NCBI GenBank assembly: GCA_030390025.1
Contig: CM059447.1
Span: 15,376,001 to 15,440,000 of the forward strand
Reading direction: 5' to 3'
From: Squalus acanthias
Taxonomy: Eukaryota
Length of the DNA stretch: 64,000 nucleotides
This document shows, piece after piece, positions 1-61,097 of the stretch (position 1 is the first letter of the stretch; every line of letters begins with the position of its first letter). A program made the position numbers and the translations under genes. The notes below the pieces were generated by a model, which was not told the origin of the DNA, made no database searches, and saw only the letters and a list, made by a program, of their open reading frames with translations.

Positions 1-910
1 ATGAGTGACCAAGACCTATTGGCTTAAAATGCAGGATGGGTAGAACACCCTAATATTCATAGGCTGAAGAATGATCTATCTTGAAAATAGAAGATTTTAT
101 TTAGTATTTTTTTGGTTAAGCTACTTGGTTCTGTGAAGGAATGTAATCATGTTAAGAAGAACTTCATGAAGTTGAATATGGTTTTGCAATTTTATTAGAT
201 AAACTCAAGGCATGTATATTTAATATTCTTTCAAAGATGGCAAAGGTGAGTAAGCGGGAGCATCTTAATTATTCATCCCGGTGTGGGCTAAATTTCTACT
301 GCACAACTCTTTGGGCCTACGTGAACGTGGACATGCCTCCTATCCCCAGAGCTTTGGTCCAGGCACGATGTGGCATCAGTGCACACTTAATAAATACTTT
401 TGACCACGGCCCATTGGGATGCGGCATTTGCTCTCCTTGAGGATACAGTTCAACATCACTGCAGACTTAATGAGATGTTTATCCAGGACAAAGAATTAGC
501 AAGGAATCTGTTGACAGACTAGGAGGAGGAGTTGTGATACAATATGACACATTTGATGTCAGTGGCCATCATTTCGTATGCCTCACTTAAGAGCAAAGTG
601 AAAAGGAATTAAGATAATACTGCCTGCAATACGAGGTTAAGATCCGAGAGTGAGCTCACACAGCAGGGACCTGTGAAAAGATGCTTAAAAATTTGACACT
701 AAAGAAATTGGCTTAAGTTGCCTGAAAGGGAGCTGGAGGCTGATTTTCAACAGACGTCAGGCTCACTCCAACTTCCAGTGAGCAGAATAAAAAAGGTAAA
801 AGATTTCCAATGCAAAAGCAAAATACTGCGGATGCTGGAAATCTGAAATTAAAACAGAAAATGCTGGAAATGCTCAGCAGGTCAGGCAGCATCTGTGGAG
901 ATGGAAACAG

Positions 911-947
911 AGTTAACGTTTCAGGTTGAGGACCTTTCGTCAGAACT
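911..947 (-). ncRNA. Minimal hammerhead ribozyme motif (core intact, one stem II mismatch)
   Basis: Reverse complement reads AGUU-CUGACGA-A-AGGUC-CUC-AACCU-GAAA-CG-UU-AACU. Confidence 0.7.
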
Positions 948-989
948 GTCGGTGGCCATCATTTCGTATGTCTCACTTACGAGAACTGG

Positions 990-1026
990 GGTTCTGTTGA
1001 AAGTTCATCGACCTGAAACGTTGACT
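990..1026 (+). ncRNA. Degenerate hammerhead motif (core CUGUUGA)
   Basis: ggttctgttgaaagttcatcgacctgaaacgttgact; core and stem II are mutated. Confidence 0.5.
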
Positions 1027-1683
1027 CTGTTTCTCTCTCCACAGATGCTGCCTGACCTGCTGAGCATTTCCAGCACTTTCTGTTTTTATTTATTATAAAC
1101 GATTTCCAATATTGGTTATACAACCGATCTAGGAAATCAGCACAAAACAGAACTGGCGCTCTCTTTTCTCTCTGTGGAGGTTTGCCCTCAGTGTTATATG
1201 TGAGGTGGGTTGTGGCAGTTGTTATAATTCAGGGCAAAAGAGAGATTCAGATTTTCAGCATCCACAGTATTTTGCTTTTGCTTTTGGTTTTTTTTCCCCA
1301 ACACTCATGCGGAATCTGTAGGCAGGTCCGTGCCTCCTACGAACCAAAATATAACTTTACGTGTAAAGTGAATGGGATAGTGTATCTCAGGGTTAAACTA
1401 CAATTTGTATTTATACATCAAATATACTTTAAACTTGTGCTGAAAACAAAATAATGCAGTATTCAACTTCTTAGAGTCCTTTTCCACGTCCTTTAACCGA
1501 GTTGTTTGGTACCAATATTTTGATGTTTCTTACGTGGAGCATACCTCAGCCTCAACAAATTTCTGCCCCAGTGCTGTGATGTGGAAATACAGTTCAAACA
1601 AATGGACCAAAGATATAGTGAAGAACTGCAGCAAATATACCAGGACCAGGGAGCTTCTAACACCTCAGATCAAAATCAGGCCT

Positions 1684-12000: not shown

Positions 12001-12663
12001 TGGGAGAGAACCTGAGGGAGCGCACTGCAAGGGGGGGAAGCTAACCTCCAAGGCATCGGCAGAGTACAACACTTGATATCTCTTTTGGGTTAATGTTCTG
12101 TGAGGAGATAGTGGGGTAGGCCCCATCATTAGGCTTGGATGAATCAATGTGTTGTGTCGAGGTAAGTAAGGATTGAATTGCTTTGAGGATACTTTAGGTA
12201 GTGTTGGGGCTGAAGATTTTTAAAAGCCTCAGTTTTAATATTTTCTGGCGGTGTACCTGAGCTGATTACATCAAAGGTATTGTGGTATCCAAGGTTGTAA
12301 TTTGAAGTACATTCAAGCTGTGGTTTGGAGTAGTGCAAATCTGTGACTCTACGGTGACACTGCCAGAACGATCTTACAAAAGCTTTTCTGTTTTGTAGCT
12401 TGAGCTGCAACACACTAAAGCAGGGCTTTAGCCACTTGCCAGTGTTTATTGTTAAGACTAGGCTTGCACTCTGTGGCACTAAATGTAACCTGCTTGGTCT
12501 GAGCACAGTTGACATTCAGGATCCTTTTACTGATAGTTTGGATGCCAGTCTGAGTTATGTACTTGCTCCTCAAATATTTGTTTAATTTCTCCACCACACC
12601 TTCATGCTCCACAGCTGGATTTCCCCCTTCTTCCCCGAGTGGCCCTGCCTTCTCTTTAACTGT

Positions 12664-12835
12664 GAGAAGTCGCACAACACCAGGTTATAGTCCAACAGCT
12701 TTATTTGAAATCACAAGCTTTTGGAGCGCTGCTCCTTCATCAGGTGAAGTGAAGAGATGCATATAGGCACAGCATATATAGTCAGAGAACACTGGCAGTC
12801 CACCCCAGTCCAACACCGGCATCTCCACATCATGG
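12664..12835. mobile_element. Penelope-like element (family B) inverted cassette
   Basis: Antisense arm with a hammerhead motif (12711-12747, GAAA mutated to AAAA) joined to the sense terminus gtccaccccagtccaacaccggcatctccacatca. Perfect 15-bp direct repeat cttctctttaactgt at 12649-12663 and 12836-12850. Confidence 0.75.
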
Positions 12836-13139
12836 CTTCTCTTTAACTGTTCTTCTACTTTGAATATGCTTATAAAAGCCCTTACTATTTCCATTTATAT
12901 TATCTGCTAGCCTTTTACATACTCTCCTTTAGCCCTTCTGATCTCCATTTTCACTGCCCCATTACACTTTCTATATTTGTCATGTTTTTAGTATTGTTAG
13001 TCAGATCCTTCTTATCTCACTGAACCTTCCCTTTTTCCAATTCAGCACCATTATCTTTAACTGTTTATTGTCCTTTTCTATTTTGACATTGAACCTAACA
13101 ATGTGGTGGTCACTATTTCACAAATGTTCTCCTACTTAC

Positions 13140-15434: not shown

Positions 15435-15538
15435 GGGGGAAAATTGGGTTACTTTGTGCCCCCCGTTAGTGCAGGGACGCTAACTTTTTCAGAGCGCTAA
15501 AGTAGCGCCCCAAAGGGGGCGCCACCAAATTTTTCCCC
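15435..15538. mobile_element. ~105-bp Harbinger-type MITE
   Basis: TIRs gggggaaaattgg and ccaaatttttcccc. Subterminal gcgcta/tagcgcc motifs shared with the elements at 35980 and 51102. Confidence 0.65.
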
Positions 15539-16399
15539 TGTAGCTGAACTTAATTTTATTACTGGGTCTTTAAGTAGAATGATAAATGGGCATTTTTCTG
15601 TTTTTCAATAAAAGACAATCTAGTCCTTGATATCCTTTACACGTTTCAGCAGGAGTCTCTCAATGGAGACCGAGAGCAGGAAACTTGGCTACAGATTAGT
15701 GACTTACAGGAATTTACTGTAGATTTGAAGGACTACAGACTGGAAGTGGGCTGAGGAGTTCCAGCTATTGAGAATCTATTCAGCTCATTTCTCATAAAGG
15801 AAAATATTCTATTTTCCAGCCCTTGCCCTGATGTGCACAGAAAAAAAAAATGTACACCGATAAATTACAAGGAAGTGAAATACTTCATCTCCCTCTGAAA
15901 CTTTTCAGGAATCTCAGCTATGCTATTTATGAGATTATTAGCTGGAACTACCAGGCTCAGCTCTAACTTGCTCTGCACACATTCAGCAAATGGTTCCCGG
16001 CTGCAGTGTATCTGACCGTGCCGCAGGAGGCTGCCCAGTCCCTGCTCGTTCACATCAGTGCTGCCATTTTGCCTAATAAGGATTGGATCTTAAGTGGTTC
16101 ATTAAGAAGGGGACTGTATGGGAGAGAATAATTTTCTGATTAGTATGAACTGTATTCCGGCCTTTCACTCAGCAGTGTTGGTAATACTAACAACTGATCA
16201 ATACTTATTTCAGCATCAGTTGTTGTATAATGATTGAGAGCATGGGAGGAAGCCAACTTCTGCACCTAATCGACTACTTGAGTTAGATAGGGGATAAGTT
16301 ATGGTGGGCAGTGGTTTACAAATAGGGTACATAATGGATGCAGGGATTAACTGAACAATAAGTGGTATTAAAACTAAATTGGGGACACTGTGATGACTC

Positions 16400-24020: not shown

Positions 24021-24607
24021 TGTCCTAAACCCATTCTTCTAAACTTCCTTCCTAACACAATACCTATTGTGTTGGGATAAGGGCAGGAGAAGGAAGGATG
24101 AGGCTCCTCTGTAGTCTGTACTGTGAAACTGAAGAGAGTGCTCTTCACAGAATCTACAATGAGCTGATACCCCTTGGTATTGGTAGTTTCAAATAGCCAG
24201 AGCACTGTTATATGTAACTGTGTAAAGTAAATGACATGTGTCATCTGAGGCGAGGGTTTCACCGGATATCCCTGATGGCTGGATGCCAGCGGTTGTTGAA
24301 ATGGTAAATGGTTGCCGATGGTAGGGCATTCACGGGATCCACCATCTTGTGTATGGCTGCGGACGAGCTAACCTGTTAGTCTACAGTTCAGCAATGAGCT
24401 ATTGCCATTTCACTGATGTTCGGGAAAGTCACAAATATGATCGTGGACTAACTGTGTACGTGCAAGATTTGAACGTGTGCAGTTCCTTTAAATTCCATTC
24501 AAGGCGTTGAAGCAACTGCACATGCCCAAATATTCCTCTGTTGCAGATTCCGGCCCACAATGTTAACAGGTCCAACTCAGCACCAAGAGGATTGGATTAG
24601 AGTACAG

Positions 24608-24760
24608 AAATAAAAACAGAAAATGCTGGAGATACTCAGCAGGTCAGGCAGCATCTGCAGAGAGAGAAACAGAGTTAACGTTTCAGGTCGATGACCTTTC
24701 GTCAGAACTGGACCTTTTCTGTTTTTATTTCAGATTTCCAGCATCTGCAGTATTTTCTTT
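24608..24760. mobile_element. Penelope-like family A inverted cassette
   Basis: Antisense arm with hammerhead joined to the sense terminus. TSD ttggattagagtacag (24592-24607) and ttggattatattacag (24761-24776), 14/16 match. Confidence 0.78.
24673..24709 (-). ncRNA. Minimal hammerhead ribozyme motif, intact
   Basis: Reverse complement reads AGUU-CUGACGA-A-AGGUC-AUC-GACCU-GAAA-CG-UU-AACU. Confidence 0.8.
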
Positions 24761-24799
24761 TTGGATTATATTACAGGCTGCTTCTATAATCTAAATGGG

Positions 24800-28952: not shown

Positions 28953-29285
28953 CATGGCAGCTGTCTTTCATTCTGCCAGCGCAATTTACACTTCATCTAG
29001 AGCCATCTTTTGTTTCTTAACCTGTCCCATTACCATCTCCTTTGGCCTTGAATATCTCTTTAATGTCTCTTAACCTCACCTGCCTTCTATCCTATCAGAG
29101 ACCTTCCCTTTTGTTCTTTCATCCCCTCCCCCCTTTCCCAGCCCCTACACTCGCTTAAAAATCTGTTCCATTTCCTGCTTTTTTCCAGTTCTGACGAAAG
29201 GTCATCGACCTGAAACGTTAACTCTGTTTCTCTCTCACAGATGCTGCCTGACCTGCTGAGTATCTCCAGCATTTTCTGTTCTTAT
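28953..29285 (+). mobile_element. Penelope-like family A 3' terminal (pLTR-like) fragment
   Basis: Colinear with 60766-61097 and contains a hammerhead motif. Confidence 0.8.
29187..29223 (+). ncRNA. Minimal hammerhead ribozyme motif, intact
   Basis: agtt-ctgacga-a-aggtc-atc-gacct-gaaa-cg-tt-aact, with palindromic AACGTT in place of stem III. Confidence 0.8.
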
Positions 29286-29864
29286 TGGAGATTAATTGAT
29301 GTTGATGAGGGAAATTTGTAGATTCTCAGGTGCTTGTAAATTTCTAGCTCCAGGTCAGAAGAACCAACATGATAAGAATTTTTTTTAACATACTTTTTGA
29401 TGCTCTGAAAGGTGACATCTGAAGTGAGACAGATCTCAATTGTTTTCCCCGAAGGCACTACCCGTGGGTAGTCTTGGATTTGAGGTTGCAATGTTTAGGC
29501 ACTAACCTAGCCTGTCCCTTTAAGGCCACTGTTCAGGTACTTCCTGTGGTGAAATACTCTAAATAGCTCCTGAAATCAATTATCGGCTAACCGCTGTTAG
29601 TAAAGGAAGTTTGCAAATTTATGGCTCCATATCAAACTTCACTCAACAACAGAAATTAACCTCCGCATGATGTGACTGCCTTTCTTTTTTATACTTCTGA
29701 CATTTTGAAATGTGGCATCTGATGGACTGGTCTCCAAACCTTTATATATATATAGATCAATAAGAAATTAGAAGTAACACACTGGAAGATCCTAGACAGG
29801 TCCTAAAACGCTCTTCTGTGTTTAATATTATATTTAAATGGTAAACATTTTTTAGAGCACTCAC

Positions 29865-32074: not shown

Positions 32075-32425
32075 CATAGAATTTTACAGTACAGAAGGAG
32101 GTCTTTTGACTCATCACACCTGTGCAGGCTGTGTTCTCCACTTTCCTTCTAAAAGCTGTTATAGATTCTTCATCCATCACATTTCTGGTAAGGGGTTCCA
32201 TGGTCCTATCAACTTTCTGTATAAAAAAAATATTCTCCTAACTCCCTTCATTCTGCTGGTGATGATCTTAAATTTGTGCCCTCTATTTACCAATTCACCG
32301 ACCAGTGGAAATTGTTTGAACACCTCAATCAGATAAATCATCTTAGCCTTCTCTGGGCTAGTGAATAGAGGCCCAGTTTATTTGCTTCCTCCTTATAACT
32401 AAAGCTGCCTTCTCCAGTATAATCT
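32075..32425 (-). mobile_element. Degenerate CR1 3' fragment
   Basis: Antisense tail catagaattttacagtacagaaggagg. Confidence 0.65.
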
Positions 32426-33420: not shown

Positions 33421-35979
33421 GAAAATTAAAATAAAAACCGAAAGCTATCTTATCTGTGTCTCATATTTATTTTTTAATGGGTGGGTGTATAACAAATATT
33501 GGGAGGAAAATTCATAATCCTAATCAGATCTCTTCTGGAATGCTTTTTGCCTAGGATTGCAACACAGGCTAGCTCGTGTTTCATTGGAATGGAAAGAAAA
33601 TAATGAGGTCCTGTTGTGATCACTAATCTGTAGGTCGTGCCAATGGCAGGTTTTTTCCACCTGAAGTGAAAGATTTTTCAGCTCAGGGGAACTTAGTCTG
33701 TATATTTTTTTAGCTGGTTTCCACTTGATCATCTTCTCTGACCCTTGTTTTGAGGTCAATGGTCCCAGCTCTAGTGAAATCTATTAAAGAGTCTGCACAA
33801 TTTAATCCAAGACAACACACCCAAAGGTAACCACTCAATGGTAGCTTTTTATTCTGCTTGCATTACAGTGTTGTAAAGCAGATTCAAAAATTCAGCAAAT
33901 ACCACATGTTCCTCTCTGTCCAGACTCATAAATGAAAAATGGCCTCTTGGGTGAGGCAAGGGAGAATGTATCCCACCACAAGTCTGCACCTTCTGAGAGG
34001 AGGGAGAGAGATAGAGGGCAAATAAAAAGATACGGTGAATGAAACCAAAACTTCATAACCTGAGCAAATGACTTTTCAGGTACATGGGCTGACTGGCGCT
34101 TAATTATGTAATGTTTATGATTTGTTTAATTATTACCCTGAGATGCTTGTTAGTGTCTTTAAAAATGCTGCTGACCAAGCCTTCTTTGTGCAATTCCTTG
34201 TCGCCTCCTTACTTGATAAACTGTTCGGAATACTTGTTTTGTAGTAAGGGAGGCGAGACGTTCCTGACTGATAAACTTACCGCAGTCAAGCTTCACAAAC
34301 CAAATGACTTTTGGAAGTGCACTGACTTTTGTTGTGTCGGCAAACACAGTAGCCATTCTTTGCCAGCAATGTCCCACCAACAGCAAAGGAACAGATGACC
34401 ACTTATTAGGAGCGATCCCTGGGCTGAGTGTTAGCATTCCCGCCTCTGCGTGCAGCATTTGAGCCACACTCCCGGCGGGTGGAGACCGGAGCTCCGGCTC
34501 TGAATCCTGAGTTGGCGTCCAGCGGGATACTTGCGTCCAATGGGTGTGGGTGCCTCCACCCTCATCGTATGGGTTGCGGGGGCCCATAAAACCTTGCTAT
34601 TGTAGAGCACGAACCACCCTATTGGCTGGTATAAAGATGGTATATGGCCATGGAAGGAGCATTCCCGTTGGATTAATCAGCCATTGCTTCACGCTATTCT
34701 CCAAAGGAAGAGTGTGACAATACAAAAACAACAACAACCGCTTATTAAGTCTGCGTGTTTTTTTATTCAAATCCACAGATTTTACAGATTTACTTTGTGC
34801 TGTTTGTGTTGCCAAACTATGCACCGATACAATTGTCATTAAAAATATAATAAAACAGGCTGTGTTAAAGAAATGGCCAGACTCCTAACACGATGATTTT
34901 GTGACAAAAGTGGTGTTGACAAAAGTAAGGATAAACAACAGAGAATAAAATAAACCCACATCATACAGAAATGAGAAAGCAAAAGAGGAAATTCTCATGA
35001 ATGCATCTGTCAGTGCGGCAGCAGCCACAGTTAGGCCAGTGATACAGATTATTGAATCACACTTCACACAAGTTCCCATTTGAGGGTGGGTTTATTTGAG
35101 GAGGGGGCAATGGCAGCAGTTCAGTTATTGTAGTGATGTAAATGACTGAATTATCAGGAGCATACTGTATTAACTTTCAGTTCACTGAACAGGAGAAGCA
35201 TTCCCCCATCCTCAGCAGTCCTGAATAGTTTTCCGATCTGATTTGAAAAGTACAATCTTGTGTAGATTGTTAAACCCCTGCTTTTGAATGGCCTTTAAAT
35301 ACCTGTTGATACCCAGCTACAGGAGGCAAACAAAGGAACAATGGGAATCAGTTGCACTCTTCTATTGTCAATTTCCCAGACGGCACAATGAGCTTCCTGT
35401 TCAAAAAGAGAAGTGAGACAAATATAGTAAAGGAGAAGGTATAAATTTAGCTTAAAGCGATCTTACAAAGATCGTGATGCGGGAGAGCACCCCGCTTGGG
35501 CCTAAATTTGCCTTATGCTGGTTTGAACTTATGTCCTTTTTTCCCAGTTGGTAAGAATGCTGACTCGAAGGCGCTACAGCCACTGGCAGCGTTCCCCAAC
35601 ACTGCTCCTGCTCAGATCAGCTAACCCGGCAGAGACCGAGGGTGAAACCCGCGACCTTCTAAGTCAGCGTGGCTCAGTCCACACTACATAGCACATTTAT
35701 CCAATGAGCTGTCAGAGGTGCCCACAGCAGGGATCTTTCAGTCTCGGGTGGACTTCCTATCCAACAGCTTGCTGACCGTGTAAAGGAAAGGGTTCCTGTG
35801 ATCATGGCCTGTGGGTCCATCATATTAAAGAAAGTGTAGTGCAGCTAAACTTGTGCTGTGGTGTTTGGTATAGTGTGGTAGAAAGAGGGATCTTGCCCCT
35901 AATACCCCTTAAGGTGAGTTCTTCCTCTAATGAGCAGAGACCAATGTGAGAAGTCGCACAACACCAGGTTATAGTCCAA

Positions 35980-36752
35980 GGGGTAAAAATTGAGTCGCGC
36001 CCCATTTGGGGCGCTAACCTCGCCGGGGCGCGACTTTTAGCGCCCCGAAAAAATTAGCGGCCCCGCGCCGGAACTTCAGTGGTTGCGCCCCAAGAGGGAA
36101 GCGGGGCGCAACTGGAAGCACCCCGCATCCCTCTTGGGGCGCTGCGAGTGAATATCCTGGCGCTACGTGCCGCAGCGCCACGCGCTGCGGCACGTCGCGC
36201 CGCGGTATTGCAGGCCTTCCTCCCCTTCTTAAAGGGGAGGGGCCTTGCGCAGCGCGAACCGGGGCCCAGCTGGGCCCCCAGGGATCGGGAGTGCCGGCAA
36301 AAGAGCCCGGCACTCAAGAGAAGTGCCGGGCTCTTGGAGCGCAGCCGGCACTTCACGGTGGGGGGGCTTCACGGGGGCCGGGGACAGCAACGGGGGCAGG
36401 TGCTGGCAGGCGGCCAGCAACAAAAATGGCCGCCTGCCACCTCCCCTTTAAATATCGCCGCCCCGGCCGCACGTACGCCCCCCTGAACCCGTCGGACATA
36501 GCGTCTGGCGGTAAATCAGGGGGCGCGACTGAAGATCACGGCCGGGGCGCGAGCGGGGCGCTGCGCACGGCGATGACGTCATCGCCGGCGGCGCAGCGCC
36601 ACAGGGCGCTACCGGCTGCCGCCGCCGCTAACCTCCCACTAAATTTTTCGGGAGGCGTGGGCGGCGCTGCGCCCGGGCGTTAGCTGCTTTACGCCCCATT
36701 AGCGCCCATTTAAGGCGCTAACGGGAGGCGCAAGCAGCTGAATTTTTCCCCC
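35980..36752. mobile_element. CpG-rich non-autonomous PIF/Harbinger-type element (773 bp)
   Basis: TIRs ggggtaaaaatt and aatttttccccc. 3-bp TSD CAA (35977-35979 and 36753-36755), which is provable because the host repeat reads gttatagtccaacag uninterrupted at 12684-12698. Confidence 0.85.
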
Positions 36753-36770
36753 CAACAGTTTTATTTGAAA

Positions 36771-36807
36771 TCACAAGCTTTCGGAGCGCTGCTCCTTCGT
36801 CAGGTGA
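36771..36807 (-). ncRNA. Minimal hammerhead ribozyme motif (family B), intact
   Basis: Reverse complement reads UCAC-CUGACGA-A-GGAGC-AGC-GCUCC-GAAA-GC-UU-GUGA, with palindromic AAGCUU. Confidence 0.8.
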
Positions 36808-36842
36808 CCTGACGAAGGAGCAGCCGCTCCGAAAGCTTGTGA
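36807..36842 (+). ncRNA. Hammerhead motif (family B), stem I clipped by the inversion junction
   Basis: ac-ctgacga-a-ggagc-agcc-gctcc-gaaa-gc-tt-gtga. Confidence 0.7.
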
Positions 36843-38045
36843 TTTCAAATAAAACTGTTGGACTATAACCTGGTGTTGTGCGACTTCTCACATTTGTCCA
36901 CCCCAGTCCAACACCGGCATCTCCACATCAGAGCAGAGACCAGGCACATCTAACCAGTGTAGGAGGGAGGGACCTTCGATGGTGACTCATACAGAGCTGT
37001 TCTCACTTCTCTCCTGTTCACTTCATTGTGCTTCTAAATGTTATTCATATTTGATTGTGTTAAATTCAATTGTAGAATGAAGTGAGTCAAACTTAGATAG
37101 CAACTGCACCTAGATCCTGCGCAACATGCAGTTACATACACAGGGAAGAGAAGATGTGCTTTTAATCCATGTCATGGGGGAGAGAGCTAATTGGTCTGCT
37201 TTCCTATGTTTCTTTGTGGCTAGTGTGGCAACATTCACTGTTGAGGCTGGCACCCAATCCCCTTTCTGAGCTGGTCTCTAACCATTGCATTACAGTGGTG
37301 CAAATTACTGGGTCTCCAGTTTTCCCTGGGTCCCCACGTGCTAAAAGGTACTGGCAAGTGCCGTCGTTGCGCAACACCACTTTATAGCTGCTGTTTGCAA
37401 AGTCCAGTTTAGACAAGTGAGGCAGAAGAAGGATGTGACAGCTTCACATTGAAATGTAGTGGTGGCCTTTACACATCTGATTATGTAATACAGAACTGAG
37501 TTCTGCCTCTCCCTACCTTCAGATTGAGGCCGCACCCAGATGTGTAAACATTCCTAACTCAGTGCACATGTCACTCAGGGTGCATTTGCTGTACTTTCAC
37601 TTTATCGTGAGCTGATAGTTTCCGATAACTCTACCAGGCCACAGTGCTGTGACTTAGAAGGGATGGGAACCGAATTATATTGTGAGTCATCAAAATTCTT
37701 ATGTCCATGAGTCATTAAAGGAACAGTGTCAGTAAGGTAAAGTCTCTTTTTATAAATATTTCATTTAATTTACAGGAGTGTGTGGTAATATAACAGATGA
37801 TTAGGGTGAAATTTCCTGCGGGGATGTAATTGAGAAGTTATGGCCATTTGTGCACCCATTTTGCCAATGCCTATTTGCACCCAAATTTCCTGCCAAACTC
37901 ATTAACATACACCAAAACATAACAATCAACATAAACAATCGGGGTTCGAGGAAAGCACCGAACTTGCTCCGCATATTCCATTTTTAAGCCTGGAAAATTA
38001 AAGTTTCAAGCCACCTAACTATCATTCACGCACATTAGGCACCGC

Positions 38046-45229: not shown

Positions 45230-46240
45230 CCAAAAATCATGACTGCTATAAATCTTGCAGTGTGAAAGAAATGGTTCCTTGGGATGACCATAGGAAATGC
45301 AGAAACACGTTAAAAGGGTGATCAGAAGGCCAAAGAGAGACCTAGTCAAAAAAAATGTCAGTGCTATAACAGTAAAAGCTCTGAAAGAGTGAGAACCGTA
45401 TTAGATGCAAACGGACTTGAAAGTGAGGATGAACACAAAATAGTAAATATTCTGAATGATTATTTCCTCCAAGTATTGAGAAAGAATGGCATGAGCAACA
45501 CGATCTCCCCCAAATGGAATTAAGCAAAGTAAAATCAATGACAATGAAATCAATGAGATGGAAGTCTCAGACAGGCTAAAGCGGTTCAAAACAAATAAAT
45601 CGCCAGTGATAGATGGGACTAATTCCAGAATGCTGAAATAAACTAAGGAGGACATTTGTGAGGCATTGCAAATCATTGAAGGAGTCACTGAATAGTGGGC
45701 AGGTACCAGTAGATTGGAAGAAGGGAGGAATGTAGTGTTCATATTCAAAAAAAGCAATGGAACAGACACAGGCAAGTATTTCCATTCCATATAAAATAAT
45801 GGCATCAATTATCAAGAGTAAATTTGGTGATTATCAGCACAATAATCGAGTAAATATTAGTCAATGTGGATTCAGATGGGAATAATCTTGTCTGATGAAC
45901 TGCCTCAACTTCTTTGAGGATGTGACATCCTAGGTGGACTATTACATAGTGTACTGAGACTTCCAAAAGGCCATTAGTTAAAGTCAAAGCTGTGGTGATT
46001 CAGGATAAACCATGGGAATGGATAGGAAATTGGCTTGTTAGAAGAGTTATGTCTGGGTGGAGGAGAGTATTGAGTGGAGTGCCCCAGGGCTTGATGTTTA
46101 GACTACTACTGTTTCTAATTTACATAAATAATATTGATTCAGAAACTCAATGCAAAGTGGTCAAATTTGCCAGATGATCCAAGACTAGGAGGGACAGTGG
46201 AATCAGAGGAGGCAGCTCAGAAAGTACAGAATGAATTGGC
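45230..46240 (+). mobile_element. Degenerate CR1 RT-region fragment
   Basis: WIGNWL...VLSGVPQGLMFRLLLFLIYINNID...VVKFA. Confidence 0.8.
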
Positions 46241-46529
46241 AAAGTATTATCTATGATATTAAAATGATTGCGTAAAGGCAATGTTTTAATTACCCACTTT
46301 ACACCCTTAAATGTGTAGTGTTAGAGCATGCTATTAATTGTAGTGTTCTTAGATTGTCCTTTGGCAGTCTGAATGCACTGTATACTCATGGACCAATGCT
46401 TCCTTGTAGAGTTGCCTGAGTTTTCTACATTTCAGCTGGAATGTTAGGGGAAATACCAAGTGGATCTTAGTTATCTTGCCTGTTGGAAAAGAGGTAAATT
46501 CCACTTGTAAATCATCCTCTGCGATTGCC

Positions 46530-49040
46530 ATGTCCTTTCAATTTCTGATCCATTCCCAGGGTTTACCCTGAATACCCACAGCTTTCAATGTAATTAATAG
46601 CCTTTCACGGGGAATTTACTCAATTGCAGTTTTGGAAGTCGAGGTACACCACTTCATAGAGCTTACCGCAGTGTACTTGGGTTGCCACTTCCTCTAAGAA
46701 GTCGAGAAGGTTAGTCAGACAGGATCTTCCCTTTCTGAATCAATGCTGACTGCTGTTAACTAGGTTCCTGTTGTATAGATGATCTTCAAGCTTACTCCTG
46801 ATAATCAATTCCGTTATTTTACATGAAATGGAAGTAAGACTAATGGGTCTGTAGTTGCCTGTTTCTATTTTGTCGCCCTTTTTGAGCATGGCCACCACAT
46901 TAGCCTGTTCCGATCTATTGATTATCAGTGCCTCATAAATCTCTTCCCGAATCTCTTTCTGCACTCTGGAATAAATATCAATTATTCTGGGGATTTATTT
47001 GTTTTCAGCACAATTAGCCTGTCTAGGACTTCCATCTCATTTGTAACAGTCATTGGTTTTACTTGGGATACCCTTGTTTCTAGAGGGCTGCACTGTTGGA
47101 GATGTCATCTGTCGGATGAAATGGTAAACCAAGGCCCCATCTGCTCTCTCAGCTGAACGTAAAAGATCCCATGGCACTATTCAAAGAGCAGGGAAGTTCT
47201 GCCGGTGTCCTGATCAACATTTATCCCTCAACTAATACCTAAATCAGATGAGCTGGTTATTTATTTTCATTGCTGTTTGTGGGAGCTTGCTGTGCACAAA
47301 TTAGCTGCTTTGTTTCCTACATTACAACAGTGACTACACTTTAAAAGTACTTTATTGGCTGTAAAGCGCTTTGGGACGTCTTGAGGTTATAAAAGGTGCT
47401 GTATACATGCAAGTTCTTTCTTACCCAGATTAGTTCTTGTAGCTTTCTACCTTACACAGGATAAACTTCTTTTACCTCCAAGCTGTCCCTGACATATAGG
47501 TCTACATCACCTCCTAATTTGTCCATTCTGTATTTTCAAAACACTCTACATCCCTGAATGTTAAATTAATTTCCGTCCATGTTCTTGATATTCCCACCAT
47601 ATTGTAGCTTCTAGCTGTCAGAACAGATTCCAATTCATTTACTCCTATGTGGACTACTATCACTGAGTCCCTACCTGTCCCCTTCAGTAGCCCTCCTTAC
47701 CTTTCCTCAGTGTGTACTGCTCTAGCTCCTGGTAGACTACTCACTCACCATCGTGTAGGCTTTGTTCATACGACAAACATGGCTATCCACTTTCCAGAGC
47801 AAAGAATTGCCTATGATTACAATCTTTCTGTGACCTGCAAACTGCATCTTTGTCTATTTTGTACTCTCTAGTTTTCTCACTACACTTTACTTCTGCAATG
47901 TTGGACAGTGTCCGGCATCTGTTCACTAATGTAATCTCAGATATTTTCAAAGAGTTTCTACCTATCTTTCTTTTTTGAACCAATCTTTATCCATCCAATA
48001 TATACATTACCTTGACTTCACCAGCAATTGTTCCTTTGACATGACAACACTGTTCCTGATTCTACTGGTCCCCAGTTCCAATCCCTGAATGTTCACTCTT
48101 GACGTCTGAGACTAGCCTGATCATATGACTTACCTGAAAGTCTCAGGGGACTGGGACTAATTGGATAGATCTTTCAAAGAGCTGGCACAGGCACAATGGG
48201 CCAAATGGCCTGTGCTGCACCATTCTATGATTCTATGAAATGACTCACTTACTAAATCCAACACTATTTAGTCACCCTCAAAAATTGCCTCACTTCTGTC
48301 TATCTACCCTTGTGAGTCCCTTGCTCTCTAAACTCCTTCTTTAAGCTGACTGATTAACAGACCGTTTCCGCATCTCTTCACCCTTCTATTGTATCTGGCT
48401 GTCTCATTTGTGAACATCCCACAGCAAATATACCTCAAAGTCGCCATCTTAGTTTCTTTCTCTCATCTGTTTCCCTTCCTTGTTGTATTTCTCCCGTTGT
48501 CCCCTTTGGTTTAACTTTCTTTCAACCCCGGTGCTCCCTTTTGATTTTACTTTTATCTGGTGCCCTCTTTTAATTGTTACTTCCCTCTGGTGTTTTCTTT
48601 TACTTTTTACTTCCTTCGGGTGTTATTTAATTTGGCTTATTCTGGGTGGTCCTCTTCATCGTCTGCTCCACACAGGTGTTTCCTTTCATCTTCGTTCTTC
48701 TCCACTGCACCCTTAAACTCTTAACTTCTTAGCTTTTCTCCTTTTAATCTCCTGCCTGTGCTCCTCTTCAAGAAGATACCTCGAGTTACTGATCCTTTTG
48801 TCTTTCCTGCTCCCCTGTTACTGTACCTGATTGCTGAAACTTCACGTTGTGCGGAGGCTTTGGTGAATCGAGCTCTGCTCGCGGCAAAGTATTGGCCCGA
48901 AACAGTTCACCTTGTTGCCAATTTAGATGGCGTCTGTGGTCCTTTTGGTTCACTTCTGCTGGTGTCTGAGTTCTTTGGTGTCTCTGCTGTTTATTGATGC
49001 TTTTGAAACTTTCACGGGAGCGCTCGGAGGAGCTTCTGGC
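46530..49040 (-). mobile_element. Internally deleted CR1 LINE: 5' region and ORF1 esterase remnant through to the RT start
   Basis: Minus strand GGLLKGTGRDSVIVVHIGVNEL (~47631-47696) resembles the CR1 ORF1 SGNH-esterase VVHIGTND motif. KKGDKIETGNYRPISLTSISCKITE (46740-46964) is pre-RT. The 5' boundary is uncertain. Confidence 0.65.
47087..47422 (+). mobile_element. SacSINE1-like SINE, 5'-truncated, nested in CR1
   Basis: Colinear with 1800-2135. Confidence 0.82.
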
Positions 49041-49332
49041 AGTAAACCACTAATCAACTAACTCAGCACAGACTGGGGAGTGAACCTAGGAACTCGTGGT
49101 CTTGCACGGCTCAGTTACTCACGGGCTTTTACCGGCACAGTCCCTCTCCGGCTTCCTCTCACTAATGCCAGATTCAGTCTGCAGTAATTCCTCCATGATA
49201 AGTTATGCATTTATGTCTATTCCAGTCGTTCTCCAAAAGTATTGACAAGCCTGTGACCCACACTGCTCCATCCTCTACTGGACCAGGGAGCATGGCAGTA
49301 GGAGTAAATGGCTCCAATCGAATTTTCTTACT

Positions 49333-49783
49333 AAAATAAAAACAGAAAATGCTGGAAATACTCAGCAGATCAGGCAGCATCTGTAGAGAGAGAAACAGAG
49401 TTAACGTTTCAGGTCGATGACCCTTCGCCAGAACTGGAAAAGTTGGAGATGTAACAGGTTTTTAAGCAAGTGTAGGGGGAGGGGAGGAAAGAACAAAAGG
49501 GAAGGTCTGTGATAGGATGGAAGGCAGGAGAGATTAAGAAACAAAAGGGATGATGGTGCAAGGCAAAAGGAGATGGTAATGGGACAAGTTAAGAAACAAA
49601 AGATGACTCTTGATGAAGTGTAAATGGCACTGGCAGAATGATCAACAGCTGCCATGTGAGAGAGAGAAAAAAATGATAGGAGCAGAGGTTATGGTCTGAA
49701 ATTGTTGAACTCGATGTTGAGTCCAGAAGGCTGTAAAGTGCCGAATCAAAAGATGAGGTGCTGTTCCTCGAGCTTACGTTGAT
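49333..49783 (-). mobile_element. Penelope-like family A fragment: GIY-YIG C-terminus remnant, 3' region and mutated hammerhead
   Basis: Antisense QRKLEEQHLIF*FGTLQPSGLNIEFNNFRP*. Hammerhead at 49399-49435 has core CUGGCGA. Confidence 0.82.
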
Positions 49784-50837
49784 TTTTTTACTATTGTAAA
49801 ATTTTTACTATTGTAATGAACGTACCCCTGTGTTCATACTCAGTTGTTCTCCTGCTCTGTTTAACAAACTGCTGTTTAAATCAAGTTTAACATTCCATAA
49901 AGATTTACATGGAGAAAGTTGCCAATAAACACTTTCTCACAAGCTGTGCTTATAAGTGTGCCTGAGATCATGGCTGTAATTTTTCTGAATTGCAAAACAA
50001 TTAAAGGAGGATGATGCTGTAACATCGGCAGGGTGTGAGAGCTGGAACAGAGGATTCCACAATCTTCGAGGTCTATTGCGGACCTTCACCTGGAGCATAC
50101 TTTTCAGCAAATATTTGGACGCCACCTGCTATTTTGAAGTGCACAAGAGTACTTTAATAAAGCCGACACCCTAATACAAGAGAAACAAAAACTTGCCCTG
50201 TTCCTATAAAGCAATTCGTGATGTGTTCAAATGGTTTACCTATAAAAAAGCACCTAAATTTCCATGTACATAAATAACGCACACCAGACCAGCAAAATGT
50301 TTAGAATATTCCTACCGTTTGTAAACTGCTGACCATAATCAAAGAGCAACAAAGTCACTTCATCATGTTCCATCATAGTGTGTATCAGAAACCATTACTG
50401 GTAGTCATGTATCCTCTGATTCATTCAGTGCATTAACTCAAATGAATCAGCTATTACCTAACTGATATGCGTATAAATTGAATCTTGGCACTTACAAGAC
50501 TAGTAGCATCAACATTGTGAAATGTTCTCCCAATTAACCCACGTGACACGTGTAGAGACTGTGAGGTAGACTTTCCGTGGTGGTTGTGGATCAGGATGGG
50601 AAGTTGTGGTGGAGGTTTTCTCACCGACCAGAGTAGCACATTGGCTGACCCTGATGACCGCTGAACCTCATTAGCTATATACAGTGAACTGCCGTCAGGT
50701 CATTCACCAGTAACAGGCAGCTTGCAGCTTTGGGTATGGAATATCCAACCCTGAAATAGCTGTTTAAGGAGTGGATCTTTTTTTTTAACAAGCAAACACT
50801 TTTGGAAAGTTCTTCTACACTATTCTGAACTATTATT

Positions 50838-50939: not shown

Positions 50940-51101
50940 GGGCACCCTAACCCACAGGGGAGCAGTCAACATTGCCTGAGATTATGGATGTAATTTTCCT
51001 CTTCAAGATGCCAGTAATCTGATCTATAGTAGATGCATGGCTTTGTTGTATCTGCTGACCACGGGTCTCCCAAGGATGATGTTAACCTGCAGACTGTCAT
51101 G

Positions 51102-51977
51102 GGGGGAAAAATTCGGTTGATTAGCGCCTCCCGTTAGCGCCCTAAGAGGGCGCTAACGGGGCGCAAAGCAACTAGCGCCCGGGTGGGGCGATGTTTGCGC
51201 CGCTCGCGAAATTGACCAGACATTTTGCGGCGGCGCTAAACACTACCGCCACGATCTCCTGCACCCACAGATCATGACGTCAGTCGAGCGTGCAACGCCC
51301 CGGACCGGATATTGAGTGGCACCCCATGCCTTTCCGCCTGTCGCTAGCAACGACAGGTAGAGGGGAACGTTTTGCAGTCGGGAAGGGACTGGGAGAGCGC
51401 TATTTAAAGCCGGCCGCTTCCTGCCTTTTTTTTGTAGGCGACATTTTTGCACTACGCATTCTGAGAGAGAGAGAGAGACTTCTGGATTCAATGCTGTGTG
51501 AAGGAGTTTTGGGTACTGAGCAGCACTTTGCAGGTTCATTTTGATTTGACCTTCCTTGCATCGATTTAGAAGAGACTATGGGGGCTGCACTCTGAGCTCT
51601 TTCCCTGGGACTCTCCATTGTTCTTTCCAGCAGAATTGATGTACAGGTCTCTCCAGGCTGAGATTCAAGGCTGCAATGAGCAGGGTGTGGCTGGAGAGCA
51701 ACATCGACCCTCCCCTTTAAGAAGTGGCCGGTGCCAGTGTGTCTGTGTTCCATTGCTAACTGACATCACATGAGCTTCGCCAGCGCTCTGAGGTAGCGCC
51801 TCACTCCTCAGCGTTAGTGCCTTAAGAGAGGTGTAGCGCCTGATTTAGTGCTCAAATCACCTCCAGGGGCAATAGAAGCCAAGTTTGCAGTCGGAGGCGA
51901 TAATTAGCGCCAGGCGCTAAACTTTGCGCCCGGCCGATAATTGTGCTCCAAACGGGGCGATACCAAATTTCTCCCCC
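51102..51977. mobile_element. CpG-rich Harbinger-type non-autonomous element
   Basis: TIRs gggggaaaaatt and aatttctccccc. Left subterminal gcgcctcccgttagcgcc is the reverse complement of 36714-36731. No clean TSD seen. Confidence 0.8.
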
Positions 51978-52069
51978 TTTGTCTCCTAGGAGACATCCTT
52001 GACGTTTGCCTTCTTCACAGGCACAGGATTGGCTTAAAATAAAAGTGATGTGCTGCTAGGCACTGTCCT

Positions 52070-57057: not shown

Positions 57058-58385
57058 CTAAAGCAACAGGCAAGATAAAATCATCACCTTGATTTTGACT
57101 CAGTCCACAGCTTCAATATGTTGCAATGAAATACAATCAATCATTCTGGGGGGAAATGATCTTACCCTTTACCTTTACTGAGTTATACTTTTCATCATAA
57201 ACCCAATTCAGCGTCCTAGTACGAATGTAAAGGATGCCAAATCGTGCTGTTAACTATTAACAAAGGCATTAACATTCACTTGAAATTCCTCAGTTTAGTA
57301 TTTTAACAAAGGTGTTAACCTGAAATGGTTTCATGTCTTCATTAAAATAGCAGGCAAGAAATTCATATGAAAGTGCAAACATATTTGTTACTAATTTTAC
57401 ACTGCATAATTTCAAGGCAAAAATGTTCAAACACAAGATTTAGAAAGGTGCTTTAATAATCAAAGCCTCTCCTGAATGTATTTTCCTAGTTCTGTGCAGT
57501 GAAACCTCCGATGGAGTTTATATTGTACTCATTTAATACAAGTGATTTGTATATCAATGTATTGTACATAAAACCCAGTTCTATTTCTAGTTCCTTTCCC
57601 TTGTTTCTTAATTAACAATTCTCCTAGAGTTAAATGGGATGTGGTAAAGCATAAGTCACTTGCTAAAACATTTAGGTTAATGAGATTCTTGTCTTCATTG
57701 CTTTGAAAGACAGAAATTTAACGTGATGATTTCAAAACTTAATTAACAGTAGCCATTTAGTCACTCATGAAACCATACAGTAATTGTGACTATTATAGGA
57801 ATAGCTAATAAATATATGTAGGTTTGATGCGGTCAATGCACCTTGCTCACCAACCAGGAAACTATTTCTTCCAGATTCCAAGATTGTGAACGATATACAG
57901 CTCTTTGTTCTTATAATATGGGATGAGTTAGTGAGTTTGAAGTTGTTCTCATTCACTGAAAAAAAAGTGTTCTCCAGTGTCTCCATTCTACATATATGTT
58001 TTATATATATATATATATATATTTACTACAAGGAAATAGGAAAAGATTGGCAGACAGGATTTTGATTTGGAATCTTTATTGAAGTTCCTTTCTAAATCTT
58101 TGTGCTTTTCACAATTTTTTCCTTGAATTTGCACTGTGCAATATTCGTACCAAATGTGTTGCATATTTATGAATTTCTTGCTTGTCATTTGAATGAGGAA
58201 ATTAACCTGTTTCAAGTTACAACCTTTGTTACAATAAAAGAAAATGACCCTGTCAATGTGTTCGATATAATCCCAGTAGTGGGAGTTGGAATTGATATAC
58301 AGTAGTTACTGAAAATAACACTGTTAAACCCATTCCTATATTTGTACCATTTTTTTTAAGATTCTTTCACTCTGGTTTAACTCAC

Positions 58386-60117: not shown

Positions 60118-60580
60118 GTTAAGGAGAAGGTAGATAAGTACATGAGGGAGAAAGGAATAGAATAATATGCTGATAGGGTGAAATGAAATAAGGTGAGAGG
60201 AGGCTTGTGTGGAGCAAAAACACCGGCATAGACCTGTTGGGCCGAATGGCCTGTTTCTGTGTTGTGAAATTCTATGTAAAAGATTCAATAATTGATTCTG
60301 AAACATTTTTATTTGCATTCTTCAAAGTAGACCTCTACCACCAAGAAGGACAAGAGTAGCAATGAATTGATAACATCATCACCTTCAAACTCTTCTCCAA
60401 GTCACACATCATACTGACTTGGAGATATACCACTGTTCCTTCATCTTCGCTCAGTCAAAATACTGGAATTCCCTTTTTAACAATATTGTGAGATCACCAT
60501 CAGCACAAGGACTAAAGTGGTTCAAGGAGAAGGCCCACCACTACCCTCTTAGGGCAACTAGGGATGGTACTAAATGGGGC
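60118..60580 (+). mobile_element. Two CR1-group 3' ends (~60118-60278 and ~60345-60580)
   Basis: Tail gggccgaatggcctgtttctgtg; the second matches 39186-39360. Confidence 0.7.
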
Positions 60581-60584
60581 CTGT

Positions 60585-61097
60585 TCCATTGAAGATCAAT
60601 GTAAGCTCGAGGAACAGCACCTCATCTTTCGATTAGGCACTTTACAGCCTTCTGGACTCAACATAGAGTTCAACAATTTCAGATCATAATCTCGGCCCCT
60701 GTCATATATATTTTTTCCACACTTTTATTTTGGTTTTTTTGTTTGTGTTCTTTTCTTCTCTCCCACATGGCAGCTGTCTTTCATTCTGCCAGCGCAATTT
60801 ACACTTCATCTAGAGTCATCCTTTGTTTCTTAACCTGTCCCATTACCATCTCCTTTTGCCTTGACTATCTCTCAATGTCTCTTAGCCTCTCCTGCCTTCT
60901 ATCCCATCACAGACCTTCCCTTTTGTTCTTTCATCCCCTCCCCCCTTTCCCAGCTCCTACACTTGCTTAAAAATCTGTTCCATTTCCTGCTTTTTTCCAG
61001 TTCTGACAAAAGGTCATCGACCTGAAACGTTAACTCTGTTTCTCTCTTCACAGATGCTGCCTCACCTGCTGAATATCTCCAGCATTTTCTGTTTTTA
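60585..61097 (+). mobile_element. Penelope-like family A fragment: GIY-YIG C-terminus, 3' region and mutated hammerhead
   Basis: 60591-60689 encodes EDQCKLEEQHLIFRLGTLQPSGLNIEFNNFRS*. Hammerhead at 60999-61035 has core CUGACAA. Confidence 0.85.

What the first reader, a model, noticed from the sequence alone, without database searches (positions are those of the whole stretch)
35932..36942. Recurrent compact inverted architecture: TSD, antisense ribozyme arm, sense terminus, TSD
Seen four times in two families: 812-1095 (15-bp TSD), 12664-12835 (15 bp), 24608-24760 (16 bp) and 35944-36930 (12 bp). In three of the four, the inversion point lies within a few bases of the 5' edge of hammerhead stem I (948, 24710, 36807); at 12.7 kb it lies ~50 bp further. 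Here the result is a near-perfect palindrome of ~85 bp per arm with back-to-back ribozymes. Known: Penelope elements often have inverted partial termini, and twin priming makes inversions in LINEs. Inference: these 150-280 bp non-coding units may be stereotyped products of ribozyme-delimited templates, or an independently mobile hairpin (retrozyme- or MITE-like) family.
Basis: partly seen in the sequence, partly recalled or inferred. Interest (0 to 1): 0.7.

Follow-up and report, generated by a model that had tools for sequence, protein, structure and literature searches.

The report
Mini fold-back Penelope retroelement insertions
These short mirror-image inserts are stumps of Penelope-like jumping genes laid down in a pattern already described for that class; the one possibly new point is that their fold-back points gather where the element's own transcript probably starts, not where its ribozyme would cut.

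Summary
The four TSD-flanked units are real. They are stumps of two Penelope-like element (PLE) families in the published 'inverted copy + 30-40 nt tail + TSD' layout. Earlier scan notes report the same layout in other genomes. The focal unit is 987 bp, because a 773-bp TIR element interrupts one arm.

The breakpoint cluster holds but is not the rule. It covers 3 of 8 insertion events in the window, and 6 of 12 listed rearranged joints in public contigs fall in 12745-12750, inside a zone I noted beforehand (p 1e-5 to 8e-3). These breaks lie 1-7 nt before the hammerhead core and about 30-36 nt from the predicted cut, so they are not cleavage ends. They coincide with an initiator-like A. In family 1 it has a strict TATA box 30 nt upstream, one of two such pairs in the window; family 2 has a weak one.

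Best reading (0.55): cDNAs primed at the two tail boundaries run off the transcript's 5' end and are joined head to head. An independently mobile hairpin, retrozyme or MITE is not supported. The transcription start is inferred, not measured.

The parts
35932..35943 (+). Left TSD copy (12 bp) of the focal family-1 insertion
   Evidence: exact repeat at 36931-36942
35944..35979 (-). Outer part of the inverted arm; begins at the tail boundary (inner RT start site)
   Evidence: 41-nt inverted match to 36858-36898, 98%; same boundary at 12661-12664 and in contig loose ends
35980..36752 (.). Nested 773-bp GC-rich non-coding element with 12-bp TIRs and a 3-bp duplication (35977-35979, 36753-36755); Harbinger-like is a recalled label
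   Evidence: relatives near 15435-15540 and 51093-51979
36753..36807 (-). Inner part of the inverted arm with a complete minimal type I hammerhead (stem I 5' strand 36807-36804, core C 36803, predicted cut between 36775 and 36774)
36805..36808 (.). Head-to-head junction; palindrome centre at 36806, base 36807 shared by both arms
36807..36893 (+). Sense arm; hammerhead core C at 36809 with truncated stem I and a 1-nt insertion in loop II
36894..36930 (+). 37-nt tail present on this side only (outer RT start site at its end)
   Evidence: 35 of 35 identical to 12798-12832; contigs join arm start to tail as the normal element sequence
36931..36942 (+). Right TSD copy
12664..12797 (-). Family-1 inverted arm at the second locus; core C 12743, stem I edge 12747, initiator-like A 12750, predicted cut between 12715 and 12714
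12773..12780 (-). Strict TATAWAWR box, first T 30 nt upstream of the initiator-like A at 12750
   Evidence: one of two such pairs on both strands of the window
12798..12835 (+). Family-1 tail-only sense piece; TSD at 12649-12663 and 12836-12850
812..948 (-). Family-2 sense arm with tail, core C 943; a 27-codon ATG-led frame runs from 892 through the tail; TSD at 797-811 and 1096-1110
947..983 (+). Templated filler copied from flank 557-593
   Evidence: 34 of 37 identical
991..1091 (+). Family-2 tail-less inverted arm, degraded core at 994
24608..24712 (-). Family-2 inverted arm, intact hammerhead (core C 24705), ends 7 nt before the core
24715..24760 (+). Family-2 sense piece (17 nt overlap with the arm plus tail); TSD at 24592-24607 and 24761-24776
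28953..29286 (+). Longer tail-less family-2 copy, no TSD found; weak TATA-like word and initiator-like A at 29187
49334..49786 (-). Longer tail-less, non-inverted family-2 copy with 12-bp TSD (1 mismatch); carries the end of the ORF
60579..61097 (+). Longest family-2 copy: last 36 codons of the ORF (GIY-YIG-linked C-terminus), 3' region, hammerhead (core C 61003), ends at the tail boundary

Best explanation
Each unit is one integration event of an endonuclease-positive Penelope-like retrotransposon, not an element of its own. The protein nicks both target strands 12-16 bp apart and primes a cDNA from each nick at one of two internal sites on the element RNA, the two ends of the 34-40 nt tail (shown in vitro for anole Poseidon; inferred here). 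The two cDNAs are joined head to head by end joining with 0-3 nt of microhomology or templated filler (junctions shown; pathway inferred). The result is TSD, tail-less inverted arm, sense arm with tail, TSD. The tail lies at the start of the ORF, so it occurs both near the 5' end of the transcript and in the downstream repeat. Priming in the 5' copy leaves only about 85-140 nt of template, and the cDNA runs off the RNA 5' end. I infer that this end is the polymerase II start set by a TATA box and initiator 4-7 nt before the hammerhead core, which makes compact units with breakpoints at stem I. Priming in the downstream copy gives the longer, variably truncated copies that reach into the ORF end. 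The ribozyme is copied uncut and, inside the hairpin, is probably silenced by its antisense arm.
For: Layout and fixed outer boundary at 4 of 4 loci. In four runs the strongest listed loose ends with unique flanks sit at the two tail boundaries, 12661-12665 and 12833-12834 (table 7; 24 of 550 rows shown). Family-2 ORF end matches proteins with GIY-YIG and RT domains: P0001 GIY-YIG E 0.048, P0022 RVT_1 E 5.6e-19 plus GIY-YIG E 0.008.

Literature: two adjacent internal RT start sites equal the tail, both strands are cut and extended, uncut RNA is the main template, and product length follows the RNA 5' end (PMC11167929). Inverted truncated copy plus one-sided tail (PMC8557442; PMC3846280). Opposite-strand minimal hammerheads 100-700 bp apart (PMC4209133). 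A TATA box plus initiator-like TCACT in a rotifer pLTR.

Breakpoints: I noted the zone 12744-12752 before seeing the contigs. 6 of 12 listed rearranged joints end in 12745-12750 and none between 12751 and 12796; binomial p 1e-5 to 3e-4, or 1e-3 to 8e-3 after dropping the two rows explained by AGT/GT microhomology. A strict TATA/initiator pair occurs twice on the two strands of the window, once at 12750. All three family-2 copies that reach upstream have a loose pair at the homologous base (29187, 49435, 60999; 22 loose pairs in all).
Against: No transcript 5' end was measured. Only 15 of 49 joints and 24 of 550 loose ends were shown, chosen by support, and rows shared by X1 and X5 are probably the same loci. 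Whether the tool can list skips shorter than about 49 nt is unknown, so the empty stretch 12751-12796 may be technical. Summed contig depth shows no step at the site: across-edge ratios 0.57, 1.06, 0.62 in X1, X5, X17 against 0.70, 0.58, 0.58 just before it. So many copies run through and the class is a minority. 5 of 8 window events break elsewhere. The family-2 TATA word is weak, and the 24.6-kb arm extends 3 nt beyond the initiator-like A. In both families the breaks lie 1-7 nt before the core, which fits a ribozyme-anchored stop equally well. D. virilis Penelope has a TATA-less promoter, with an intron ending at helix I (PMC2377424; PMC4209133). Family 1 has no ORF in the window, so its PLE status rests on hammerhead, tail and layout.
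Confidence: 0.55

Rival explanations
1. Same PLE origin, but the hot spot is set by the ribozyme fold itself: the RT stalls or jumps as it leaves the 5' strand of stem I, or a protein-bound hammerhead protects the RNA against 5' exonucleases up to that point.
For: In two dissimilar families the breaks lie within 3 nt of the stem I edge, and 1-7 nt before the core. The 24.6-kb arm passes the initiator-like A by 3 nt. The anole hammerhead is protein-assisted (PMC11167929).
Against: It does not explain a strict TATA box at exactly -30 from an initiator-like A at that spot, a pairing seen twice in the window. The monomer hammerheads are not more stable than shuffles (z -0.1 to -2.0 for 6 of 6).
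Confidence: 0.2
2. There is no true hot spot: truncation is roughly random, and the cluster comes from the reader's choice of loci, from microhomology between this stretch and the tail, and from the tool's choice of rows.
For: 5 of 8 window events and 6 of 12 listed joints lie elsewhere; no depth step; 34 joints unseen. 2 of the 6 GT sites and 1 of the 4 AGT sites of the arm lie at or next to the zone.
Against: The zone was named in advance. 4 of 10 rows remain after dropping the microhomology rows (p 1e-3 to 8e-3). 3 of 8 window events in a 9-nt zone has p 3e-4 to 1e-2 (zone chosen after the fact). Both families agree.
Confidence: 0.1
3. The boundary is an RNA-processing site such as a 3' splice acceptor at stem I, as for the D. 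virilis Penelope intron, and the arms end there because of splicing intermediates or a very short first exon.
For: In family 2 the same letters read as a pyrimidine tract plus CAG. The D. virilis intron ends at the 5' end of helix I (PMC4209133).
Against: Family 1 has no AG at the site. The letters beyond the break differ between 812 and 24.6 kb, so no common first exon is seen, and the arms keep 1-3 bases upstream of the AG.
Confidence: 0.05
4. The hairpins are an independently mobile non-autonomous family (retrozyme- or MITE-like) that is copied as a unit.
For: Some joints recur in more than one contig or species (12745 to 12798 in X1 and three X17 contigs), and two X5 joints have depth 158 and 276 against 15-34 for joints shared with X1, so a few junctions exist in several copies.
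Against: 4 of 4 window junctions differ. No tandem same-sense ribozymes. Ends are asymmetric and TSDs are long and variable. The 36.8-kb centre is not among the 15 listed joints, while the normal arm-to-tail continuity has depth 4255 in X1. The hairpin (-111.5 kcal/mol) would pair off the ribozyme in either transcript. The two high-depth joints are tail joins, not hairpins, and are not listed for X1 of the same species.
Confidence: 0.05
5. Templates are delimited by hammerhead self-cleavage, so cDNAs run off at the cut.
For: Two joints lie at the predicted cut: 12715 in X17 (table 5) and 12714 in X5 (table 5c). A minor class is possible.
Against: The arms at 4 of 4 loci carry the core, which a cleaved template would lack. 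One of 12 rows within 1 nt of the cut is expected 27-41% of the time. In anole, ribozyme mutants insert normally and no reads ended at the cut (PMC11167929).
Confidence: 0.04

Closest known systems
Complex insertions of EN+ Penelope-like elements: inverted 5'-truncated pLTR plus 30-40 bp tail plus TSD (PMC3846280; PMC8557442 Fig. 2)
   Same: Inverted tail-less copy joined to a sense copy with a one-sided 34-40 nt tail, TSD around the whole, minimal hammerhead in the repeat, ATG-led frame running into the tail, TATA plus initiator-like motif in the pLTR.
   Different: Here the whole insert is only 150-280 bp and has no ORF body. TSDs are 12-16 bp against 8-10 bp in the rotifer cases read. Inner breakpoints are enriched at a 6-nt zone, which the parts of these papers that I read do not report.
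Poseidon of Anolis carolinensis (PAc), internal initiation of reverse transcription (PMC11167929)
   Same: Two adjacent internal start sites bounding the tail; both target strands extended; uncut RNA as template.
   Different: Their tail lies 111-118 nt into the ORF and the ORF starts in stem II; in family 2 here the ATG lies about 25 nt after the cut. They did not map transcript starts or inversion junctions in the parts I read. Clade of the families here was not tested.
Minimal type I hammerheads of metazoan PLEs (PMC4209133)
   Same: Short stem I (4 bp), stem II of 4-5 bp, an unpaired base before stem II, palindromic letters in place of stem III, mostly dispersed single motifs, some pairs on opposite strands.
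   Different: The pair at 36.8 kb is 5 nt apart rather than 100-700 bp, and one partner has lost part of stem I. Activity was not tested.
Non-LTR retrozymes of animals (bioRxiv 10.64898/2026.07.22.740005)
   Same: Non-coding, pLTR-derived, type I hammerhead.
   Different: Retrozymes are head-to-tail tandems with two or more same-sense ribozymes; these units are head-to-head or single.
L1 twin-priming 5' inversions (recalled, not read here)
   Same: One TSD around an inverted and a direct piece; junctions with microhomology or filler.
   Different: The second primer starts at a fixed site (tail boundary) rather than at variable internal sites, the two pieces can overlap fully, and there is no poly(A).

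Membership tests
EN+ Penelope-like element insertion | Inverted 5'-truncated copy adjacent to a direct copy | tested here: met
   4 of 4 loci
EN+ Penelope-like element insertion | 30-40 nt tail at one end only | tested here: met
   37-38 nt in family 1, about 34 nt in family 2; boundaries recur in four runs
EN+ Penelope-like element insertion | Target site duplication around the whole insert | tested here: met
   12-16 bp at 4 of 4 loci, also at 49.3 kb; none at 29.0, 60.6, 10.9 kb
EN+ Penelope-like element insertion | Minimal type I hammerhead in the terminal repeat | tested here: met
   7 descriptor hits against 0-1 in 6 shuffles; no Rfam hit at gathering threshold; cleavage untested
EN+ Penelope-like element insertion | Linked to an ORF with RT and C-terminal GIY-YIG endonuclease | tested here: inconclusive
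   Family 2: the 36-codon ORF end has no Pfam hit itself; 2 of 15 homologs scanned carry sub-threshold GIY-YIG hits, one with RVT_1. Family 1: no ORF in the window.
EN+ Penelope-like element insertion | RT phylogeny (Neptune, Penelope/Poseidon or other clade) | not tested
   no RT sequence in the window; no genome held
Non-LTR retrozyme | Head-to-tail tandem with two or more same-sense hammerheads | tested here: not met
   no tandem array over these loci among 14 TRF rows; ribozymes single or opposed
Non-LTR retrozyme | Circular RNA intermediate | not testable with these tools
   only contigs were available and no RNA holder is on record
MITE | Symmetric terminal inverted repeats reaching both TSDs | tested here: not met
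   a 34-40 nt tail separates the repeat from one TSD; at 12.7 kb there is no inverted pair
MITE | Short fixed-length TSD | tested here: not met
   15, 15, 16, 12 bp
MITE | Many copies of one length and centre | tested here: inconclusive
   4 of 4 window junctions differ; 36.8-kb centre absent from 15 of 49 joints shown; two other joints at raised depth in X5
TATA/initiator core promoter at the breakpoint | TATAWAWR about 30 nt before an initiator A | tested here: inconclusive
   met by sequence in family 1 (12780 to 12750); only a loose word in family 2; consensus motifs are recalled
TATA/initiator core promoter at the breakpoint | Capped transcripts start there | not testable with these tools
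   contigs cannot show RNA starts

The most novel reading that the evidence does not exclude
In these vertebrate PLEs the hammerhead sits at the very start of the capped transcript. Internal priming at the tail in that 5' copy yields a strong-stop-like run-off cDNA of about 85-140 nt, and two such products made on the two target strands are fused into hairpin inserts. The very many short pLTR stumps would then be a defined second product of the transposition cycle and a fossil map of the transcription start, and the ribozyme's job would be to remove a 35-nt capped leader rather than to define the template.
Probability: 0.4. Interest if true: 0.55.

Novelty: new member of a known kind. Interest (0 to 1): 0.33.

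Why it matters
The layout itself is ordinary for PLEs. How PLEs make tails, inversions and solo terminal repeats, and what their hammerhead does, is still open: the one in vitro study found cleavage dispensable (PMC11167929). If inversion points mark the transcription start, one rule would explain the short stumps: fixed internal priming plus run-off at the cap. It would place the ribozyme at the first nucleotides of the mRNA, where cutting removes the cap, and it can be tested with an assembly-wide breakpoint plot and a 5'-end library. It also warns annotators that recurrent near-identical hairpins of this kind need not be MITEs or retrozymes.

Tried and rejected
No genome is held for this window, so no assembly-wide breakpoint map was possible. 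Exact-pattern scans for the hammerheads found nothing in viral contigs, metagenome contigs or genome contigs. Rfam gave no match. Pfam gave no hit on the 36-residue ORF end.

Runs: no RNA holder listed. Run X6 is only guessed to be RNA; its steeper depth fall upstream of the hammerhead is not used as evidence, because contigs cannot show RNA starts or levels.

Free-energy folding does not recover the hammerhead as a stable monomer. I considered a cap-derived extra base at the 36.8-kb centre and set it aside, because the two central letters also match the element's own upstream sequence. I considered an alternative type III hammerhead with a cut upstream of the core and set it aside by inspection: the letters upstream form no stem I hairpin.

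Papers: PMC5785218 is not held. The anole element file is in a format that cannot be read, and supplement 2 of PMC11167929 gave only labels, so I could not check whether anole Poseidon has the same promoter geometry; that file and Fig. S2 may bear on the claim. Look-ups of earlier scan notes by sequence, by nearby place and by promoter words returned nothing.
Full report
Setting. The window is repeat-rich, about 44% G+C, with no held genome. That it is cartilaginous-fish DNA is my recall from the repeat families plus earlier AI notes; I did not test it. Nine runs of one coded organism hold half or more of the words of 35300-37500, and other organisms hold about a third.

Observation. All four units are present. 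TSDs are 15, 15, 16 and 12 bp with 1, 0, 2 and 0 mismatches, scoring 10-15 where 146 of 150 random pairs scored 8 or less. They belong to two families with different sequences but hammerheads of the same spacing. A minimal type I descriptor finds 7 motifs, all in these families, against 0-1 in each of 6 shuffles; Rfam finds none.

The focal locus reads: TSD 35932-35943, inverted arm 35944-35979, a nested 773-bp TIR element 35980-36752 with a 3-bp duplication, the rest of the inverted arm 36753-36807, sense arm 36807-36893, a 37-nt tail 36894-36930, TSD 36931-36942. Without the nested element it would be 211 bp. The arms differ by one inserted base in the inner part and are identical in the outer part. 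The stretch 36749-36930 folds at -111.5 kcal/mol, z -18. Only the minus-strand ribozyme keeps a full stem I. In a transcript from either strand the antisense arm is made first and would pair with the ribozyme (inference).

At 4 of 4 loci the inverted arm begins at a fixed point 34-40 nt before the end of the sense arm. In contigs of four runs laid on 12630-12870 (13166, 8862, 1578 and 27050 contigs), the strongest listed loose ends with unique flanks are at these two boundaries, 12661-12665 and 12833-12834. The best-supported joint is the normal continuity from arm start into tail. This is the PLE tail. PMC11167929 (parts 1-2 of 4 read) shows that anole Poseidon cuts and extends both target strands, starts reverse transcription at two adjacent internal sites that bound the tail, uses uncut RNA, and makes shorter products from 5'-shortened templates. 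PMC8557442 (passages) and PMC3846280 (parts 1-3 of 5) describe the inverted truncated copy, the one-sided tail and the TSD; the latter also notes a TATA box with an initiator-like TCACT in a pLTR. PMC4209133 (parts 1-2 of 4) reports opposite-strand minimal hammerhead pairs 100-700 bp apart.

Family identity. Two longer family-2 copies carry the last codons of an ORF. Its homologs include P0001 (GIY-YIG, E 0.048) and P0022 (RVT_1, E 5.6e-19; GIY-YIG, E 0.008); the other 13 of 15 scanned show no such domain. An ATG-led frame of 27 codons runs through the family-2 tail, as the tail overlaps the ORF start in rotifer and anole. Family 1 has no ORF here.

Is the inner breakpoint special? In the window, 3 of 8 events break at stem I: 812, 24.6 kb and 36.8 kb, with both arms ending there at 812 and 36.8 kb. 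The others break 50, about 235, 350 and 420 nt upstream, or inside a decayed core. For a 9-nt zone this has p 3e-4 to 1e-2, but the zone was chosen after the fact.

For an independent test I wrote down the zone 12744-12752 and then laid contigs. Of 49 joints, 15 were shown and 3 are the normal continuity. Of the other 12, six end in 12745-12750: 12745 to 12798, 12747 to 12797, 12747 to 12807, 12749 to 12815, 12700 to 12748 on opposite strands, and 12700 to 12798, whose unplaced letters in X5 continue the arm to 12750 (my reading of table 5c). The rest end at 12682, 12686, 12688, 12710, 12715 and 12728. Binomial p is 1e-5 over 116 nt or 3e-4 over 69 nt, and 1e-3 or 8e-3 after dropping two rows with AGT/GT microhomology.

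Against this: the rows were selected by support, some are the same locus seen in two runs, table 5c lists further joints outside the zone (12679, 12695, 12714, 12717), and depth shows no step there. The enrichment looks real but concerns a minority of copies.

Not the cut. The predicted cleavage lies 29-30 nt after the core C, about 30-36 nt from the cluster, and a cleaved template would lack the core that these arms carry. Two joints lie at the cut (12714, 12715); one of 12 is expected by chance 27-41% of the time, so a minor class is neither shown nor excluded.

What lies at the cluster. In family 1 a strict TATAWAWR begins 30 nt before an initiator-like A at 12750, three bases ahead of stem I. 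Such a pair occurs twice on the two strands of the window. In family 2 an initiator-like A forms the first base of stem I, with a loose TATA-like word 30-32 nt before it in 3 of 3 copies that reach that far; 22 loose pairs occur in the window. The consensus motifs are recalled. No listed family-1 break in the cluster passes 12750, but the 24.6-kb family-2 arm passes its A by 3 nt. Measured from the core, both families break 1-7 nt upstream, so a stop set by the ribozyme fold fits too. D. virilis Penelope differs: TATA-less promoter, with an intron ending at helix I (PMC2377424, passages).

Mechanism. Shown: TSDs, fixed outer boundaries, head-to-head junctions with 0-3 nt microhomology or templated filler (947-983 copies 557-593), and the enrichment. 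From the literature: two-strand nicking and two internal start sites. Inferred: a transcript start just before the hammerhead, run-off of cDNAs primed in the 5' copy of the tail, and end joining. I put this at 0.55, a structural stop at 0.2, no true hot spot at 0.1, and splicing, a mobile hairpin and cleavage-delimited templates at about 0.05 each. That the units are PLE integration products I put at about 0.95.

Independent family? The defining features of retrozymes (tandem same-sense ribozymes; bioRxiv 10.64898/2026.07.22.740005, part 1 of 5 and passages) and of MITEs (symmetric ends, short fixed TSD) were tested and not met. The 36.8-kb centre is not among the listed joints. Two X5 joints at depth 158 and 276 show that a few junctions are multi-copy, by recurrence or local amplification.

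Novelty. The layout is known, and two earlier scan notes report it in other genomes. I found no paper linking PLE inversion points to the transcription start in searches. PMC6765202 and PMC6155905 (passages) add nothing on it. Several key PLE papers and repeat-database reports are not in the library, so absence from print is not established. Verdict: new members of a known kind with one testable mechanistic lead; interest 0.33.

Noticed in passing
window 35980-36752; relatives near 15435-15540 and 51093-51979: GC-rich non-coding TIR family with G-rich 12-bp termini and a 3-bp duplication, nested in the PLE arm 19 nt downstream of the predicted ribozyme cut; Harbinger-like by recall. This is not the cleavage-triplet site of an earlier scan note.
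   Followed up: partly
window 947-983 and 557-593: 37-nt templated insertion copied from flank about 250 bp away, at the inversion junction; looks like polymerase-theta-type end joining (recalled label).
   Followed up: partly
window 49322-49812: Tail-less, non-inverted family-2 copy with a 12-bp TSD and a 15-nt tandem duplication of flank at its 5' junction; shows that the inner start site is used without inversion.
   Followed up: partly
window 1246-1284: Tail-only family-2 piece about 150 bp from the 812-1095 insertion, no TSD found.
   Followed up: no
window 6978-8383: 1.4-kb C-rich degenerate CCCCAT array with strong GC skew; G-quadruplex-prone on the other strand by inspection.
   Followed up: no
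window 32220-32257: The only other strict TATA/initiator pair in the window (initiator-like A at 32250, plus strand).
   Followed up: no
run X5, joints 12710 to 12799 and 12747 to 12797: Two arm-to-tail junctions at depth 276 and 158, about 5-15 times the joints shared with X1, and not listed for X1 of the same coded species.
   Followed up: no
window 45939-46659 and 57299-58236: Two further elements with long inverted ends 500-800 nt apart, probably non-autonomous DNA transposons.
   Followed up: no
proteins P0009, P0010: Predicted host proteins (a GPCR, an ATP synthase subunit c) end in this PLE ORF tail, probably gene-prediction chimeras.
   Followed up: no
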